DNA of 63,400 nucleotides, counting the filler, from Anaerolineae bacterium (GTDB lineage: Bacteria; Chloroflexota; Anaerolineae; Epilineales; Epilineaceae): NCBI GenBank assembly GCA_029262755.1. It is 9 parts of 9 records of this genome, joined end to end, with 100 filler letters (N's around TTAATTAATTAA, not from the genome) between each part and the next. Parts side by side here need not be neighbours in the genome. Positions count along the whole stretch, not along the records: positions 9,239 to 33,993 come from JAJCYU010000210.1; 8 more parts are not named here. One strand, 5' to 3'. This document shows positions 24,001 through 33,000 of this stretch, in pieces (positions within the stretch are counted from its first letter, which is position 1; each line of letters begins with the position of its first letter). Position numbers: made by a program.

Positions 24001-27000
24001 GCGATCCGCCTCGATAGTACGCCGCCATCGTGCGGTCATGGCACGGTCACGGCGCCTTCGCGAAGCCGATTCATCGCCGTGACGCGCGATACCCAGCCGG
24101 CCCAATCACTCCAGCCAAACCGCCCCTACCGACCCCTGCCGGCTTCACCCTCGGCGGGCGGCGCCTATCATGGGAGGGAGTCGCGCGGGCGGCAAGGTGC
24201 TCGCGTTCGGAGGGCGGCCGCGTGACGGGCGCCCGCCCTTGTTGTGGGAGCGCCAGCCATGACCGAAGCGCCGCGTGCGATCGGCCTGTTCTCCACTCTG
24301 ACCAGCACCGGTTCGCGATCGATCGTGCTGCGCATGCTGCACGAGATCGGCGCCGGGCACCTGGGGCCCGTGCGGGTCGCGTTCGTGTTCGTCAACCGCG
24401 AGGCCGGCGAGTCGGCCGTGACCGACCAGAGCGTTGCGCTCGTCGCGGAAACCGGCGTGCCGGTGATCCGCGCGTCGGCCGTCGGCTTCGAGCGCGACGA
24501 GAGGCGCGCGGCGCGAGAAGCCGCGCGAGAAGGCGATGACATGGCGCTATGGGCGTGGCGTGACCGCTTTCACGAGCATGTTCGCACGCGGATACCCGAC
24601 ACGGACCTGGACCTGCTGCTGGGCGATATGTGGATCTGGGGGCCTGCCCAATGCGCCGCGCGCCGGGGCGTCAACCTGCATCCATCGCTGCCTACGGGGC
24701 CATTGGGCACGATGTGGTACGACGTCGTCTGGGATCTGATCGCCCAAGGAGCGCCGGAGTCGGGCGTGATGCTGCACCGCGTGACGCCGGACGTGGATCG
24801 AGGGCCGGTGGCCAGCTGGTGCCGGTATTCTCTGCGCACGCCGGAACTCGATGCACTGTGGGCCACCCTGCCGGCCGATCCGGCCGAACGGTCGGCGCTC
24901 ATCGCAGAGCAACGGGCGCTGCGCCGGGACAGCGAGCATCCGCTCTTCCACGCCGTTCGCGCGGCCGGCTTCGCGCGCGAGACGCCGCTCATGCTCGAGA
25001 CCGTGCGCGCGGTGGCGGAGGGTCGATTGCGCCTGGCGGACGGCCGTGTGCTGGACGGCGGGGATCGACCCTTGGACGGCGGGCTCGACCTCAGCGGAGC
25101 GGTCGAAAGGGCGGTTGAGGCGGGGCCGTAGATTGCGTGCGTGGTCGATCTCAAGCCGGCGACACAGCCGACCGGAGTCTTGCCCTCGCCCGCTGGTGAG
25201 GCTCGGCGGCGCCATGTACAATCGCGGCTCGACTGCGTGGGCCGCAGAGCGGGGAGCAGCCGCTCGGTCCATCCCCCATCGTCCGCCCGCGGGAGAGCCG
25301 CATGTCCGAAGCCCCAAAGCTGCGCGTCCTGGTCATCGGCCGTGGTGGTCGCGAGCACGCCCTTGCGTGGGCCATCGCGCGATCGCCGCAGGTCGAAACG
25401 GTGTACGTCGCACCGGGCAACGGTGGGACGGCCGGCGAAGACAAGGTGGAGAATGTCCCGCTGACCGAGAACGACCTGGAGGGTCTCGCGTCGTTCGCGA
25501 AGCAGCGCAAGGTCGGGCTGACGATCGTCGGGCCGGAGGATGCGCTGGCCAAGGGGGTCGTGGACCACTTCCACGCACATGACCTACCGGTCTTCGGTCC
25601 CACGCGCGACGCAGCGCGGCTCGAGACGAGCAAGATCTGGTCACGAGAATTCATGGCGCGCCACGGCATCCCGCATCCGGCCTTCGAGGTTTGTCACGAC
25701 GTGGAGGCGGCACGGGCGGCGGTCCTCGAGTTGGAGGGGCACTGTGTGGTGAAGTGTGACGGCCTCGCGGCCGGCAAAGGCGTCGCGGTTTGTGAAGAGG
25801 TCGAGGAGGCACTGACCGCTGTCGACGACATGATGGTCAAGCGCATCTTTGGCGACGCGGGATCCCAGTTGCTCGTCGAGGAGCGGCGCGACGGCGTGGA
25901 GCTTTCCGTGATGGCTCTATGTGACGGGACGGAGTACGTGTTGCTACCGCCGAGCCAGGACCACAAGCGGCTCCTGGAACGCGATCGCGGTCCGAACACC
26001 GGCGGGATGGGTGCCTACGCGCCGGCTCCGCTCGGCACGCCGAAAATGCTCGATGCGGTTCGCCAACAGGTGATCGAGCCGACCCTGGCCGGCATGCGCG
26101 CCGAGGGCACCCCCTTCGTCGGCTGCCTGTACGTCGGGTTGATGGTGGACGAACGCGGCATCACCGTCATCGAGTACAACGCGCGCTTCGGCGATCCAGA
26201 AACGCAGGTGCAGCTACCCCTCGTCGCATCCGATCTCGCCGCCGTGCTGCTCGCCGCGACCCAAGGGCGCGTGGCCACGCAGCCCATTTCGTTCATCGAG
26301 GACGCAACGGCCGTTTGCATCGTGCTCGCCGCGCGCGGCTACCCATTCAGCCCACAACGCGGCTTCGTCATCGACGGGTTGGCGACGGCGGAGTCGCGAC
26401 CGGGCATCAAGGTGTTCCATGCTGGAACGAAGCGCGACGACGTCCAGATCAAGAGCAGCGGTGGACGCGTGCTCAACGTCGTGTGCGTCCGTAACGGCTT
26501 GCAGCCGGCCGTCACCGGCGCGTACAGCGCGATCGGTGCGGCCGGCGTTCATTTCGAGGGCATGGCATACCGGACGGATATCGCCTTCCGTGCGCTTTCC
26601 GCCCCCACGCGCTAGGTAGATCGATCATGTCCCGGAAGCCCATCGTTGCGACCCTCGGCAGTCACTCGGCGCTGCAGATTCTAAAAGGCGCTGCCGACGA
26701 GGGTCTGTCCAACACCGTGATCGCGACGCGCGGCCGCGACGCACTCTACCGCCGCTACCCCTTCGTCGACGAGGTCATGGCCATCGACGGCTACGACCGC
26801 TTCGGCGCGCTCGAGCCGGAGCTGAAAGCACGCGGCGCGGTGCTCGTGCCACACGGATCCTTCGTGGCCTACCTCGGCGAGACGCTCAACCAGACCATGG
26901 ACGTCGGCTACTACGGCAGCCGCAACGTGCTGCGTTGGGAGGCCGATCGCGCCTTGCAGCGCGAGTGGCTGGAAGCCGCAGACATCCCGATGCCGGCCGA

Positions 27001-30000: not shown

Positions 30001-33000
30001 GGCGACGTCGACGGCCAGCTGACGCTCATCGACGAGATCCACACCACGGACTCCTCGCGTTGGTGGCTGGCCGACACCTACCCGGACCGCTTCGCCGCCG
30101 GCGAAAGCCCGGACACCTTCGACAAAGAATTCCTGCGCCAGTGGTACGCCGACCAAGGCTACCGCGGCGACGGCGACCCGCCCCTGCTCCCCCGCGAGCT
30201 CGCCGAGCGCATGAGCCGCATGTACATCGACGCCTACCAGCGAATCACGGGCGATACCTTCGTGCCCGATGAAGCGCCGCCGGCCGAGCGGATCACGGGA
30301 CGGCTCCGGGGCGCGGGGATCATCGAATGAGACGACTAGACACCGCGCGGATCCAGGTTCACCTCAGCGTGTGGTGGGGGCTTTCGCTCTTCATGACGGG
30401 CTGTGCGATTGGGATCCTGCTCGCCGGTACATTTCCACAGAGCACGGGCCTGCTCTTCTTCGGGCTCATGCTCGGATCCGTGCTCTTGATGGCATTCCAC
30501 GTGCGCGCCCGCATGCTCGCCGAAGACGGAGTCACCGGTGAGTGAGTCCGCGCTGCGTTCCGACCCCGCCGACACCGGCCTCACCTACGCCGACACTGGT
30601 GTCGACTACGACGCGATCGACCCGGCCAAGATCATGGCGCAGAAGGCCGCCGCGCTCACCGCCGGCCAACTGTCGCGCTTCGGCCTGCACGAGGTGCCCG
30701 CCAGCCGCGGCGAGAGCGCCTACGTGTGGGAAGAGCGCGACGCCTACCGCGCTTTCGTGGTCGAGGGTCTTGGCACCAAGAGCCTCGTTGCCGACGCCTC
30801 GCGCGCATTCACGGGCCGCTCGCACTACGACGCCCTCGCCCAAGACACGGTCGCGATGATCGTCAACGACGTGATCGTCGTCGGCGCCGCACCGCAGGTC
30901 GTCAACGCCTACTGGGCCGTGGGCGATTCCCATTGGTTCGACGACCGCGAACGCGCCCGCGACCTCGTCGACGGCTGGGCGGCCGCATGCGAGCTGGCCG
31001 GCGCCACGTGGGGCGGCGGCGAGACCCCCGCTCTCAAGGGCATCATCGAACCGGGCACCATCGACCTTGGCGGCGCCTGCGTCGGCGTCGTGGACCCCAA
31101 AGAACGGCTGGTCCTCGGCGACCGCCTCGTTGCGGGCGACCACATCGTCCTGATCGAAGCCAGCGGCATCCACGCCAACGGCCTCACCCTCGCCCGCCAC
31201 CTCGCCGATCAACTGCCCAAGGGCTACGCCACCGACATCGGCAACGGCACGAGCTACGGCGAAGCCCTGCTCGCTCCGACCCCAATCTACGCCTCAATCC
31301 TGGCCGAAGTCCTCGACACGGGCGCCGACGTCCACTACCTGGTCAACGTCACCGGCCACGGCTGGCGCAAGCTCATGCGCGCCCACCGCGCCCTACGCTA
31401 CCGCATGCACAGCGCCGTCCCCGTCCCCCCTGTGCTCGACTTCATCGTCCGCCAAGGCGACATGAGCCCCGACGAAGCCTACGCCACGCTCAACATGGGC
31501 GCCGGCTTCGCCTTCTACGTCCCCGAAGTCCACGTCGACACCGTTATCTCCGCCGCCCAGCGCAAGGGCCTAGGCGCCTGGAGCGCGGGCGTCGTCGAAG
31601 AGGGCGAGCGCGAGGTGGTGGTGGAACCGCTGGGCCTGCGGTATGCGGGCGAGCGGTTGGGGGTGCGGTAGGGCTGCAGACTCGCTCCGGAACTTCGATA
31701 GCCTCAATTTGGGTGGCTGTGTATGCTCCCGGAATGAGAATATTCACGCAACGCGTCCGCGGCTTCACACGGTCCCTCGCCGACTTCTCCCGCAACTTGC
31801 TTCCCGGTCGCCTTCTGCGTACCACGTCGCAGCGCTCCGTCCGTAAGCAGCTCAACCGCACCTACGCGACCCTCGACTCGACGTTGGACGATGGCTTCAC
31901 GCGGGCCCAAGCCGAAGCCTTGCAAGACGAGAGCTGGTAGTCCCTAGCGATCCCTACTCCCCACGCACCGCACGCGGCAAGTAGATCGCGAGTTCCACGG
32001 GCACTGCCGTCGCTGTCGCCACCACCGTCGCAACCACCGTCACAGTCGCGCTCGGCGTACCGGTCGCCCCCACCGTCGGCGTCGCCTCGCTAGTCGACGT
32101 CGCCGTCACCGCCCGCGTCGGCGCCACCGTAGGCGTCACTGCCGTGCTCGTCGCGGTCGCCGTGCTGGTTGGCGTCGCCGTCCGCGTGGGTCGCGGCGTC
32201 GGTGGCGCCGGCGGGTCGTAGAGGCCGGCCGTCACGAGCGCGGCGAAGATCTGTTGCCGGTGCTGCGGGTTGTCGCCGAGGTCGCTCGTCGCGGGCCAGA
32301 AGGGCACGTCGGCCTCGCGCGTCGAGGCGATGCCGATGTAGTCGCCGATGAAGCCCGTCACGAAACCTTGGCCGTCCGTGCTCACGATCGGCATGTTGAC
32401 CGACCAGTCGAAGGCCGCTCCGCCTACCCGCAGGTTGTTCGTCCACGTCGCGCCCACGTCGTAGCTACGGCTCATGTAGGCCTCCAGGCAGAAGTTCTCC
32501 CGCCCCACGTTCGCGTCGTCCACCCACTCCGCATCCGGGCACGCCAATCTCCGATCCAGCCACACGAGCGCGACGCGGCCTCCGGGCGCCACCGAAAGCT
32601 GCGGCTGAAGCTGATCGACCCCGTTACTCACCGGATCGTCGTTCATGCGCCGCGGCTCGGACCATGTCGCGCCGCCGTCGCCCGATTGGCTCAAGTAGAT
32701 GTCGCTATCGCCGTTGCGCAGATCGGCCCACGCGGCATAGAGCGTCCCGTCCAACGGGCTCGCGACGAAGGCGGGCAAGCTGGCCGGCGCGCGGAAGTTC
32801 CGATCGTCCAACCCATTCGGCAGGAAGAAGGGGATCGGCCGGATCGCGGCGACCGTCGTCGGGGCGCCGAAACTCGCACCGCCGTCGTCCGAGCGAGCCA
32901 TCCGCAGCGAGCCCTGCGGACCGCCGAAGATGTCGCGGGCATAGATCACGTAGACCGTGCCATCCGGCCCCACCGCCGGGATCGAACCCTGCACGGCGCC

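What a model noticed while it worked through the whole genome (the two positions that open the first line are those of the whole stretch)
24259..31671. Purine operon with two tandem archaeal PurP genes in a bacterial family that lacks PurH, PurN and PurO
The pur cluster reads g01977 - purD - purP - purP' - purE - purC - (72 aa) - purM, and neither this genome nor any of 16 other Epilineaceae genomes has an AICAR transformylase/IMP cyclohydrolase (PurH), a bona fide PurN or the archaeal cyclohydrolase PurO. I read it as a bacterial lineage that makes IMP the archaeal, formate- and ATP-dependent way, with the second PurP paralogue (or the neighbouring orphan g01977) supplying one of the missing steps (GAR formylation or IMP ring closure). 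New would be a folate-independent purine pathway fixed in a whole bacterial family and a handle on the still unknown IMP cyclohydrolase.
Evidence so far: g01979 is 50% identical to Pyrococcus PurP, g01980 38% to M. kandleri/M. jannaschii PurP; DUF1246/DUF1297 occur in 15 of 34 Epilineales but only 27-28 of 6827 Chloroflexota genomes against 4383-4400 of 10118 archaea. PF01808 (AICARFT_IMPCHas): 0 of 17 Epilineaceae genomes, six of them over 90% complete, controls 12 of 14. TIGR00639 (PurN): 0 of 17 over the cut-off, best hits are the Fmt gene; a weak hit (E 3e-4) falls in g01977 just upstream of purD. PF07826 (PurO): 0 of 17. No PurT/PurK-type gene in the Pfam table.
(Added by a program. Inside this text positions count along the whole contig: they may not be those of the stretch shown here. 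"Call 12" and the like, gene names such as g00115 and contig names such as C1 are that model's own, and its searches are not shown. The text may have been shortened before it was handed on; [...] marks where a part breaks off. The agent that wrote the report below was given it as the finding of a first reader that could run no searches.)

Follow-up and report, generated by a model that had tools for sequence, protein, structure and literature searches.

The report
Bacterial purine operon with archaeal-type PurP pair
A family of Chloroflexota bacteria has swapped the usual last enzyme of purine synthesis (PurH) for a borrowed pair of archaeal-type PurP enzymes and has no known enzyme for the final ring closure, which gives a bacterial test case for an old open question.

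Summary
The operon is real: g01977-purD-purP1-purP2-purE-purC-(72 aa ORF)-purM on one strand. PurH, stand-alone PurH2/PurJ and PurO are not found in 17 of 17 genomes of the family, while 16 of 17 carry exactly two PurP genes; in the 18 genomes of sister families it is the reverse (PurH 15 of 18, PurP 0 of 18). The two PurPs are not duplicates: one is cluster Ib, the other cluster II, the obligate pair known from Crenarchaeota and Pyrococcus. Both are nested within Patescibacteria versions, not archaeal ones. The "folate-independent" reading fails: g01977 is a divergent PurN-type GAR transformylase, and FolD, formate-THF ligase and Fmt are present. The missing IMP cyclohydrolase remains open. 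PurP2 is the only candidate in sight, but 22 of 28 PurP-bearing Patescibacteria also keep PurH, which argues against it. New member of a known kind; moderately interesting because the pair comes from non-thermophile-looking bacteria and can be tested in E. coli.

The parts
24259..25131 (+). g01977: divergent PurN-type (10-formyl-THF-dependent) GAR transformylase candidate, 290 aa
   Evidence: No Pfam hit, TIGR00639 only 21 bits. In 27 homologues N139-L-H141-P-x-L-P and D180 are invariant. AF2 model pLDDT 96; the Foldseek top 8 are all PurN (3tqr E 3e-12), then PurU. The family profile hits PurN chains in the PDB (E 2e-9). Present in 17 of 17 family genomes, usually upstream of purD. JGI names many homologues PurN.
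25302..26615 (+). purD, GAR synthetase
   Evidence: TIGR00877 498 bits, cut-off 288; GARS_N/A/C domains.
26627..27697 (+). purP1: PurP of cluster Ib (PurP II of the 2019 naming), candidate formate/ATP-dependent AICAR formyltransferase
   Evidence: PF06849+PF06973. PDB PF1517 E 1.4e-95, MJ0136 E 3.6e-82. Keeps His27, Ser94, Asn258, Ser266, Glu310 and Arg314 (M. jannaschii numbering) and a Gly-rich loop of cluster I length, but the loop reads AGGSG and has lost both basic residues.
27694..28824 (+). purP2: PurP of cluster II (PurP III of the 2019 naming), function unproven; start ATG overlaps the purP1 stop (ATGA)
   Evidence: PF06849+PF06973. MJ0136 E 5e-67. Cluster II marks: loop two residues longer with a conserved Glu-Arg, His in place of Asn258, Arg before Ser94, Asp for Glu310. 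The 4-base overlap is read.
28835..29362 (+). purE, class I-like by motifs recalled from memory
   Evidence: TIGR01162 184 bits, cut-off 150. No PurK in G000.
29368..30330 (+). purC, SAICAR synthetase (long PRK12607 type)
   Evidence: NF009251 414 bits, cut-off 371.
30327..30545 (+). 72-aa hydrophobic ORF filling the purC-purM gap; probably not a pathway gene
   Evidence: No Pfam hit, one weak CbiM-like hit. No tblastn match in 10 family loci at E 1e-5, nor in the other bacterial loci at stricter thresholds. No Rfam match in 20000-33993 at E up to 1.
30538..31671 (+). purM, AIR synthetase of a divergent type shared with Patescibacteria
   Evidence: TIGR00878 177 bits, below the cut-off of 236. 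42-52% identical to Patescibacteria purM against 34% to purM of sister-family genomes.

Best explanation
This is the core of a working de novo IMP pathway of mixed design. Step 3 (GAR formylation) is done by g01977, a fast-diverged PurN-type enzyme that uses 10-formyl-tetrahydrofolate. Steps 9 and 10, normally done by PurH, are taken over by an obligately co-inherited pair of ATP-grasp enzymes, PurP1 (cluster Ib) and PurP2 (cluster II). The pair is translationally coupled here and was acquired as a unit from Patescibacteria-like bacteria, ultimately from archaea. PurP1 makes FAICAR from AICAR, formate and ATP. The ring closure to IMP is most likely done inside the pair, by PurP2 or by a PurP1/PurP2 complex. 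PurP2 keeps the formyl- and phosphate-binding residues, but replaces the carboxamide-contacting Asn with His and the glycine-rich loop with a conserved Glu-Arg. Shown: gene content, family-wide absences, residue patterns, phylogeny. Inferred: all enzyme activities. My odds: g01977 is the GAR transformylase 0.8; the pair replaces the AICAR formyltransferase 0.8; ring closure by PurP2 or the pair about 0.35-0.4.
For: Complementary distribution within one order: own family PurP 16 of 17 (always two copies) and PurH 0 of 17; other families PurP 0 of 18 and PurH 15 of 18. No PurO (0 of 17), no stand-alone MGS-type cyclohydrolase, no tblastn trace in G000. The rest of the pathway is present: purF 5 of 5 genomes tested; purL, purQ, purB, purA and guaA in G000. 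The pair is Ib + II. Both paralogues give the same tree: one bacterial clade each (99/97 and 100/99), with the family nested among Patescibacteria (100/97 and 99/94, 57 of 69 rows used). 12 of 13 bacterial loci show both genes side by side or separated only by purA. Three Saccharimonadia loci carry the pair without other pur genes within the DNA held, as reported for Korarchaeum (PMC3261824 passages). No third conserved unknown gene sits in these operons. FAICAR did not cyclize without enzyme in 30 min at 60 C (PMC6797443, passage). A PurP1-PurP2 complex prediction gave weak support: ipSAE 0.58 against a best control of 0.00. That mark was reached by 116 of 157 solved and 2 of 215 mismatched pairs, but a score of 0.60 or under by only 18 of those 157 solved pairs and by both mismatches that passed. 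The three runs agreed in at least 90% of their contacts and the partner's pLDDT was at least 87. PurP homo-oligomers are solved, so the pass may come from likeness. For g01977.
Against: In an even sample of 401 Patescibacteria, 22 of the 28 PurP-bearing genomes also have PurH or PurV, and in 7 of them it lies within 7 kb of the pair. Of 5 further pair-bearing genomes, 4 have PurH or PurV with an adjacent PurJ-like frame. Small genomes keeping both suggests that the pair does not make a cyclohydrolase dispensable. Archaeoglobus keeps an active PurH2 beside the pair, and P. furiosus cluster Ib and II proteins showed no AICAR formyltransferase activity alone (PMC3261824, PMC6797443, passages). 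PurP2 keeps the strand Lys, the EEY hinge and the Asp-x-Ser-x-Arg motif, which I read from recall as ATP-grasp marks, so it looks like a ligase and not a hydrolase. PurP1 has lost both basic residues of the P-loop. No enzymology exists. All genomes are MAGs, and the search tool has false negatives.
Confidence: 0.45

Rival explanations
1. PurP1 and PurP2 together form only the formate-dependent FAICAR synthetase, as a two-subunit enzyme or two isozymes. IMP ring closure in this family is done by an unidentified, non-homologous enzyme encoded elsewhere in the genome.
For: The pair co-occurs with PurH/PurV in 22 of 28 sampled Patescibacteria and sits in the same operon in several. 4 of 5 further genomes have PurH or PurV+PurJ. 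Archaeoglobus has the pair plus an active PurH2 (PMC6797443 passages). PurP2 retains what I recall as ATP-grasp ligase motifs. Single P. furiosus proteins were inactive (PMC3261824 passage). The complex prediction gave weak support, 0.58 against 0.00, with the caveats given above.
Against: No conserved unknown gene accompanies the pair in 13 bacterial loci, nor in the family's operon. Published surveys, last in 2019, name no candidate in Crenarchaeota (PMC6797443 conclusions passage). The family lost PurH completely (0 of 17), whereas sister genomes that seem to lack purC and purM still keep it.
Confidence: 0.35
2. One reading: a folate-independent purine pathway, with PurP2 (or g01977) as a formate-dependent GAR formyltransferase.
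For: No PurN or PurT over the curated cut-offs in the family. Cluster II changes the residue that contacts the AICAR carboxamide, which GAR lacks. Archaeoglobi have the pair and no PurN/PurT (PMC3261824 passage).
Against: g01977 has the PurN fold, the Asn-His-Asp triad and a place next to purD. Relatives sit between purQ and purM in low-GC pur operons. FolD 5 of 5, FTHFS 4 of 5, and Fmt-sized formyltransferase frames are present in the family. purF is followed by PABA-synthesis-like genes. The pair also occurs where no other pur gene lies in the DNA held. Patescibacteria with the pair have PF00551 formyltransferases in 5 of 5 genomes.
Confidence: 0.06
3. PurP2 stands in for PurK: it would carboxylate the 5-amino group of AIR with bicarbonate and ATP, the same position that PurP formylates on AICAR. 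This would apply in the family members that lack PurK.
For: PurK is missing from G000 and from 11 of 17 family genomes, four of them 95-97% complete. purP2 lies directly upstream of purE. The chemistry is analogous (inference).
Against: PurP2 is also present in the 6 family genomes that have PurK. It sits beside purK in L072. It occurs in loci with no purE. Lack of PurK is usually explained without a new enzyme (PMC3261824 passage).
Confidence: 0.06
4. The absences are artefacts of incomplete metagenome-assembled genomes or of search sensitivity; a normal PurH exists.
For: G000 is 84% complete in 428 contigs. The tool missed CarB's MGS domain in G001.
Against: 0 of 17 genomes, including G001 (5 contigs, 97%) and G009 (10 contigs, 95%), while the same search found PurH in 15 of 18 sister genomes at E about 1e-105. 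An independent tblastn was negative.
Confidence: 0.02

Closest known systems
Archaeal PurP cluster Ib + cluster II pair (PurP II + PurP III) without PurO or PurH2, as in Crenarchaeota, Thaumarchaeota, Pyrococcus and Korarchaeum (Brown et al. 2011, PMC3261824; GBE 2019, PMC6486802)
   Same: One Ib and one II gene per genome, often adjacent and among pur genes. Same diagnostic residues: Asn/His at position 258, loop length, His27 and Arg314 conserved. No known IMP cyclohydrolase in the genome.
   Different: The host is a bacterium with folate metabolism and a PurN-like enzyme. The sequences belong to a bacterial clade shared with Patescibacteria. Bacterial Ib has lost the first basic residue of the P-loop, and in this family mostly both. 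Bacterial II also differs downstream (PGSPG for GGGTN, Arg264 replaced). The 2019 survey of 1,403 genomes found PurP only in Archaea (passage read).
M. jannaschii PurP (MJ0136, cluster Ia), the only PurP with proven FAICAR synthetase activity, working with PurO
   Same: Same two domains and ATP-grasp fold family; purP1 aligns end to end (E 3.6e-82).
   Different: Ia occurs singly and with PurO. Here there are two diverged paralogues and no PurO.
PurH, or split PurV/PurJ, of bacteria
   Same: Same two pathway steps, AICAR to FAICAR to IMP; present in sister families of the same order.
   Different: Unrelated folds, and a folate rather than formate/ATP formyl donor. Absent from all 17 genomes of the family.
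PurN GAR transformylase (for g01977)
   Same: Predicted fold, Asn-His-Asp triad, NxHPSLLP-like motif, C-terminal helix and strand segment, position beside purD or between purQ and purM.
   Different: About 80 residues longer through insertions. It fails PF00551 and scores 21 bits against a cut-off of 150 for TIGR00639, with 16-22% identity to solved PurNs.

Membership tests
PurP (PF06849 + PF06973, formate-dependent FAICAR synthetase family) | Both Pfam domains over the gathering score | tested here: met
   purP1 121 and 223 bits; purP2 118 and 193 bits.
PurP | NCBIfam equivalog score over the curated cut-off | tested here: not met
   Best scores 356 bits (cut-off 580) for purP1 and 264 bits (cut-off 556) for purP2. 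The models are archaeal.
PurP | Formyl-contacting His27 and Arg314 (M. jannaschii numbering, from PMC3261824) | tested here: met
   Conserved in both genes and in all 57 aligned sequences.
PurP cluster Ia/Ib | Asn258 and a P-loop (K/R)GG(K/R)G | tested here: inconclusive
   purP1 has Asn and a loop of the right length, but it reads AGGSG; both basic residues are gone.
PurP cluster II | His at position 258 and a loop two residues longer | tested here: met
   purP2 has GH and the loop EAERGFERAFF.
PurP | ATP- and formate-dependent formylation of AICAR | not testable with these tools
   No enzymology; cluster Ib and II proteins of P. furiosus were reported inactive alone (PMC3261824 passage).
PurN GAR transformylase (g01977) | PF00551 or TIGR00639 over the cut-off | tested here: not met
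   No Pfam hit; TIGR00639 21 bits against 150.
PurN GAR transformylase (g01977) | Formyltransferase fold closest to PurN | tested here: met
   pLDDT 96; the Foldseek top 8 are all PurN, TM 0.76 to 3tqr; the profile hits PurN chains.
PurN GAR transformylase (g01977) | Catalytic Asn-His-Asp triad (role recalled for E. coli PurN) | tested here: met
   N139, H141 and D180 are invariant in 27 sequences and align to the NxH and D motifs of PurN chains.
PurN GAR transformylase (g01977) | GAR-specific activity with 10-formyl-THF | not testable with these tools
   Only context: beside purD in the family, and between purQ and purM in L085.
PurH / PurJ / PurO IMP cyclohydrolases | Any gene with PF01808, a stand-alone PF02142 or PF07826 | tested here: not met
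   0 of 17, CarB only, and 0 of 17; tblastn negative.
PurK | TIGR01161 over the cut-off | tested here: not met
   Not in G000; present in 6 of 17 family genomes.

The most novel reading that the evidence does not exclude
Cluster II PurP (purP2) is the long-sought third kind of IMP ring-closing enzyme, possibly an ATP-using cyclo-ligase and not a hydrolase. It would work with cluster Ib PurP as a two-gene module that turns AICAR, formate and ATP into IMP. This bacterial family, which lost PurH completely after importing the module, would be the natural experiment that shows it.
Probability: 0.3. Interest if true: 0.85.

Novelty: new member of a known kind. Interest (0 to 1): 0.55.

Why it matters
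The enzyme that closes the purine ring in Crenarchaeota, Thaumarchaeota and Pyrococcus has been unidentified since at least 2011, and the two PurP paralogues outside cluster Ia have no proven activity. Earlier tests used proteins from hyperthermophiles. Here the same Ib + II pair sits in bacteria that have demonstrably dispensed with PurH. The genes can therefore be put straight into E. coli purH, purN/purT and purK mutants. The finding also corrects the published picture that PurP is confined to Archaea. The pair occurs in about 7% of sampled Patescibacteria and in at least two Chloroflexota families, and it moved between bacteria as a unit. It adds a divergent PurN subfamily that standard models miss, which matters for pathway calls in MAGs.

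Tried and rejected
1. Synteny idea: that sister families have a divergent PurN next to purD. Rejected. The G025 formyltransferase lies beside an ATP-grasp_4/LAL ligase, not purD.

2. A third conserved unknown gene in pur operons with the pair. 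The unknown ORFs of L030, L031, L034 and L035 have no match in one another's loci or in G000. The one hit, L072_152 in L035 and in G000 contig C139, comes from an ORF antisense to other genes and I did not pursue it.

3. The 72-aa ORF as PurS or a conserved peptide. No family hit and no conservation. PurL of G000 is a long form of 1079 aa.

4. A riboswitch in the operon. No Rfam match at E up to 1 in 20000-33993.

5. Names for distant g01977 relatives. The cluster look-up returned none.

6. Structural paper on PurP (PMC2597449) and the review PMC2596281. Not held, so the roles I give to ATP-binding residues are recalled or taken from PMC3261824.

7. Earlier findings of this scan.

8. PurT in pair-bearing Patescibacteria. 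0 of 5 over the cut-off; the one 190-bit hit is PurK-sized.

9. Literature on bacterial PurP. Five searches found none. Database annotations do name bacterial proteins as this ligase.

Full report
WHAT IS THERE

Window positions 9239-33993 are one contig (C210, 24,755 bases) of a metagenome-assembled genome, G000. It has 5.06 Mb in 428 contigs and is 84% complete. On the plus strand lie eight tightly packed frames:
- g01977, 24259-25131
- purD, 25302-26615
- purP1, 26627-27697
- purP2, 27694-28824
- purE, 28835-29362
- purC, 29368-30330
- a 72-aa ORF, 30327-30545
- purM, 30538-31671

Pfam and NCBIfam confirm purD, purE and purC over their cut-offs. purM scores under its cut-off, 177 against 236 bits. 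Both PurPs carry PF06849 and PF06973. The purP2 start codon overlaps the purP1 stop codon as ATGA. The 72-aa ORF is hydrophobic, matches no family and is not conserved in related loci. I do not count it as a pathway gene.

THE ABSENCES

PF01808, the AICAR transformylase part of PurH, is found in 0 of 17 genomes of the family. Six of these are over 90% complete, and one has only 5 contigs. The controls rang in 12 of 14.

PF02142 hits only frames of CarB size in the family, plus one 146-aa frame in G005. PurO is found in 0 of 17. tblastn of a sister-family PurH, Patescibacteria PurH, PurV and PurJ and a PurO against the G000 assembly gives nothing better than E 0.016, and that hit lies in CarB.

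Within the order the pattern is complementary:
- Own family: PurP in 16 of 17 genomes, always two copies; the one miss is 65% complete. PurH in 0 of 17.
- The four other families: PurP in 0 of 18, PurH in 15 of 18.

This reflects one evolutionary event, not 17 independent ones. The search tool is not perfect: it found no CarB MGS domain in the 97%-complete G001.

THE REST OF THE PATHWAY

purF is over its cut-off in 5 of 5 genomes tested. G000 has purL, purQ, purB, purA, guaA and prs on other contigs. PurK is absent from G000 and from 11 of 17 family genomes, but it is a clear hit in 6. PurT is over its cut-off in 0 of 35 genomes of the order.

G01977 IS A DIVERGENT PURN

g01977 has no Pfam hit and scores only 21 bits on TIGR00639. 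Even so, several lines point to PurN:
- The large protein collection holds 90 relatives, many of which JGI names PurN.
- In an alignment of 27 of them, N139-L-H141-P-x-L-P and D180 are invariant. These align to the NxH and Asp motifs of solved formyltransferases.
- The AlphaFold model is confident (pLDDT 96). Its eight best Foldseek matches in the PDB are all PurN GAR transformylases, followed by PurU.
- A profile of the family hits PurN chains at E 2e-9 and also picks up the PurN C-terminal segment.
- The gene is present in 17 of 17 family genomes, mostly just upstream of purD.
- More distant relatives lie between purQ and purM in low-GC pur operons (L084, L085). Others are 272-aa PF00551 proteins in a housekeeping context.

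I therefore read g01977 as the GAR transformylase, and as folate-dependent. The family also has FolD (5 of 5 genomes tested), formate-THF ligase (4 of 5, not found in G000) and Fmt-sized formyltransferase frames. In G000, purF is followed by a chorismate-binding/GATase fusion and a class IV aminotransferase, the make-up of PABA synthesis. A folate-independent pathway is not supported.

THE TWO PURPS ARE THE ARCHAEAL IB + II PAIR

Brown et al. 2011 (PMC3261824, passages read) split PurP-like proteins into cluster Ia/Ib and cluster II. Cluster Ia/Ib has Asn258 and the P-loop (K/R)GG(K/R)G. Cluster II has His258 and a loop two residues longer. Exactly one protein of each kind occurs in many archaea.

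purP1 matches P. furiosus PF1517 (cluster Ib) at E 1.4e-95. It has Asn at position 258 and a loop of cluster I length. purP2 has His at 258 and the longer loop.

Across 57 aligned sequences cluster II differs consistently:
- Arg before Ser94
- a conserved Glu-Arg in the loop
- His258
- Asp for Glu310

Cluster II keeps His27, Ser266 and Arg314. It also keeps the strand Lys and an EEY hinge. Their role in ATP-grasp enzymes is recalled, not tested.

The bacterial cluster Ib has lost the first basic residue of the P-loop, and this family mostly both. The bacterial cluster II also departs from the archaeal cluster II downstream of Arg314.

ORIGIN OF THE PAIR

A scan of species-representative genomes with purP2 returned 45 loci:
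- one Anaerolineae locus at 80% identity
- 12 low-GC loci at 48-57%, labelled Patescibacteria groups; two are labelled Gammaproteobacteria but look the same
- 32 archaeal loci at 35-43%

12 of the 13 bacterial loci show purP1 next to purP2, or separated from it only by purA. In the thirteenth, purP2 lies at the contig edge.

Several loci are full pur operons. L031, for example, reads formyltransferase-purD-?-purL-purQ-purP1-purP2-purB-purE-purC. Three Saccharimonadia loci carry the pair with no other de novo pur gene within the DNA held.

I built a maximum-likelihood tree from 57 of 69 rows. I dropped two fragments, nine near-identical Methanobacteriaceae rows and one truncated purP1. For each paralogue the tree gives one bacterial clade (99/97 and 100/99). 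The family is nested among Patescibacteria (100/97 and 99/94). Archaeal cluster Ib is sampled by only five sequences, and the root is a midpoint root.

purM of the family is 42-52% identical to Patescibacteria purM but 34% to purM of sister-family genomes. purC is not closer to Patescibacteria: 48-55% against 57%.

In even samples, PurP occurs in 28 of 401 Patescibacteria, 24 of them with two copies. It occurs in 10 of 401 Chloroflexota: three from this family, six of six in a second family, and one other.

The 2019 survey of 1,403 genomes reported PurP only in Archaea (PMC6486802, passages). My five literature searches found no paper on bacterial PurP. NCBI and JGI do already label such bacterial proteins as this ligase.

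WHO CLOSES THE RING?

The literature I read leaves this open. It speaks of an 'unidentified crenarchaeal IMP cyclohydrolase' (PMC6797443, abstract and conclusions). It also records a speculation, untested, that one PurP paralogue does the job (PMC3261824, passage). FAICAR did not cyclize without enzyme in 30 min at 60 C (PMC6797443, passage).

In favour of the pair:
- The family lost PurH entirely, although three sister genomes in which I found no purC or purM still keep it.
- The pair is inherited as a unit.
- It occurs alone where no other pur gene is in view.
- No third conserved gene accompanies it.
- PurP2 shows gain of conserved polar residues at the substrate site, not decay.

Against the pair:
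- 22 of 28 PurP-bearing Patescibacteria also have PurH or PurV, compared with 42 of 373 without PurP. In seven of the 22 it lies within 7 kb of the pair.
- Four of five further pair-bearing genomes have PurH, or PurV with an adjacent PurJ-like frame.
- Archaeoglobus keeps an active PurH2 beside the pair (PMC6797443).

Small genomes seldom keep redundant enzymes. This pattern therefore fits a pair that only formylates AICAR at least as well.

A PurP1-PurP2 complex prediction gave weak support: ipSAE 0.58 against a best control of 0.00, with the runs agreeing in at least 90% of contacts and a partner pLDDT of at least 87. Scores of 0.60 or under are more often wrong than right unless the guess was likely beforehand. 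PurP homo-oligomers are solved, so likeness may explain the pass.

VERDICT

The system is a new, bacterial member of a known and still unsolved kind. Its value is practical. It offers a translationally coupled Ib + II pair from bacteria that do without PurH, and it is ready for complementation tests in E. coli.

Noticed in passing
window 1-9238 and 33994-63400: The window is not one piece of DNA. Only 9239-33993 is contig C210; the rest lies off that contig or is N. GC falls to 0.39 at 56001-58000, against about 0.68 elsewhere.
   Followed up: no
G025, G029, G030 (sister families): Three 90-99% complete sister genomes gave no purC or purM match with this window's proteins and no PurN over the cut-off, yet all have PurH. 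They may be purine auxotrophs that keep PurH to recycle AICAR.
   Followed up: partly
G000:C149:438-5651 (L163): purF is followed on the same strand by an 892-aa chorismate-binding + GATase fusion and a class IV aminotransferase. This looks like PABA synthesis joined to the first purine gene.
   Followed up: partly
L030:126-1743, L083:2507-4147, L085:7853-9520: A gene couple recurs inside or beside low-GC pur operons: a HAD-like protein of about 360 aa and an AAA_28 kinase-like protein of about 185 aa. In L030 it sits directly upstream of purP1. L030_359 has no match in G000. It may be a nucleoside or AICA-riboside salvage pair.
   Followed up: partly
family genomes G009, G010, G011, G013, G015, G016: PurK is present in 6 of 17 family genomes and not found in the others, four of which are 95-97% complete. 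The step from AIR to N5-CAIR is therefore covered unevenly within one family.
   Followed up: partly
Chloroflexota family f16 (G445, G458, G471, G483, G495, G507): A second Chloroflexota family has PurP in 6 of 6 sampled genomes, with up to three copies, two of them in tandem.
   Followed up: no
L023:4695-7545 (G025:C16): A 300-aa PF00551 formyltransferase lies beside an ATP-grasp_4/LAL-type ligase, near Fur and Znu genes. It is not a purine context.
   Followed up: no
L030, L032: Two records titled 'uncultured Gammaproteobacteria' carry low-GC (0.35-0.36) pur operons that group with Roizmanbacteria and other Patescibacteria in both PurP trees. The labels look doubtful.
   Followed up: no
L031:1805-3022 and L035:2128-3021: Two unannotated ORFs lie inside Patescibacteria pur operons. 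By eye, the 405-aa one has M42-peptidase-like motifs and the 297-aa one looks like an M24 'pita-bread' protein. Neither has a Pfam hit and neither is conserved between loci.
   Followed up: partly
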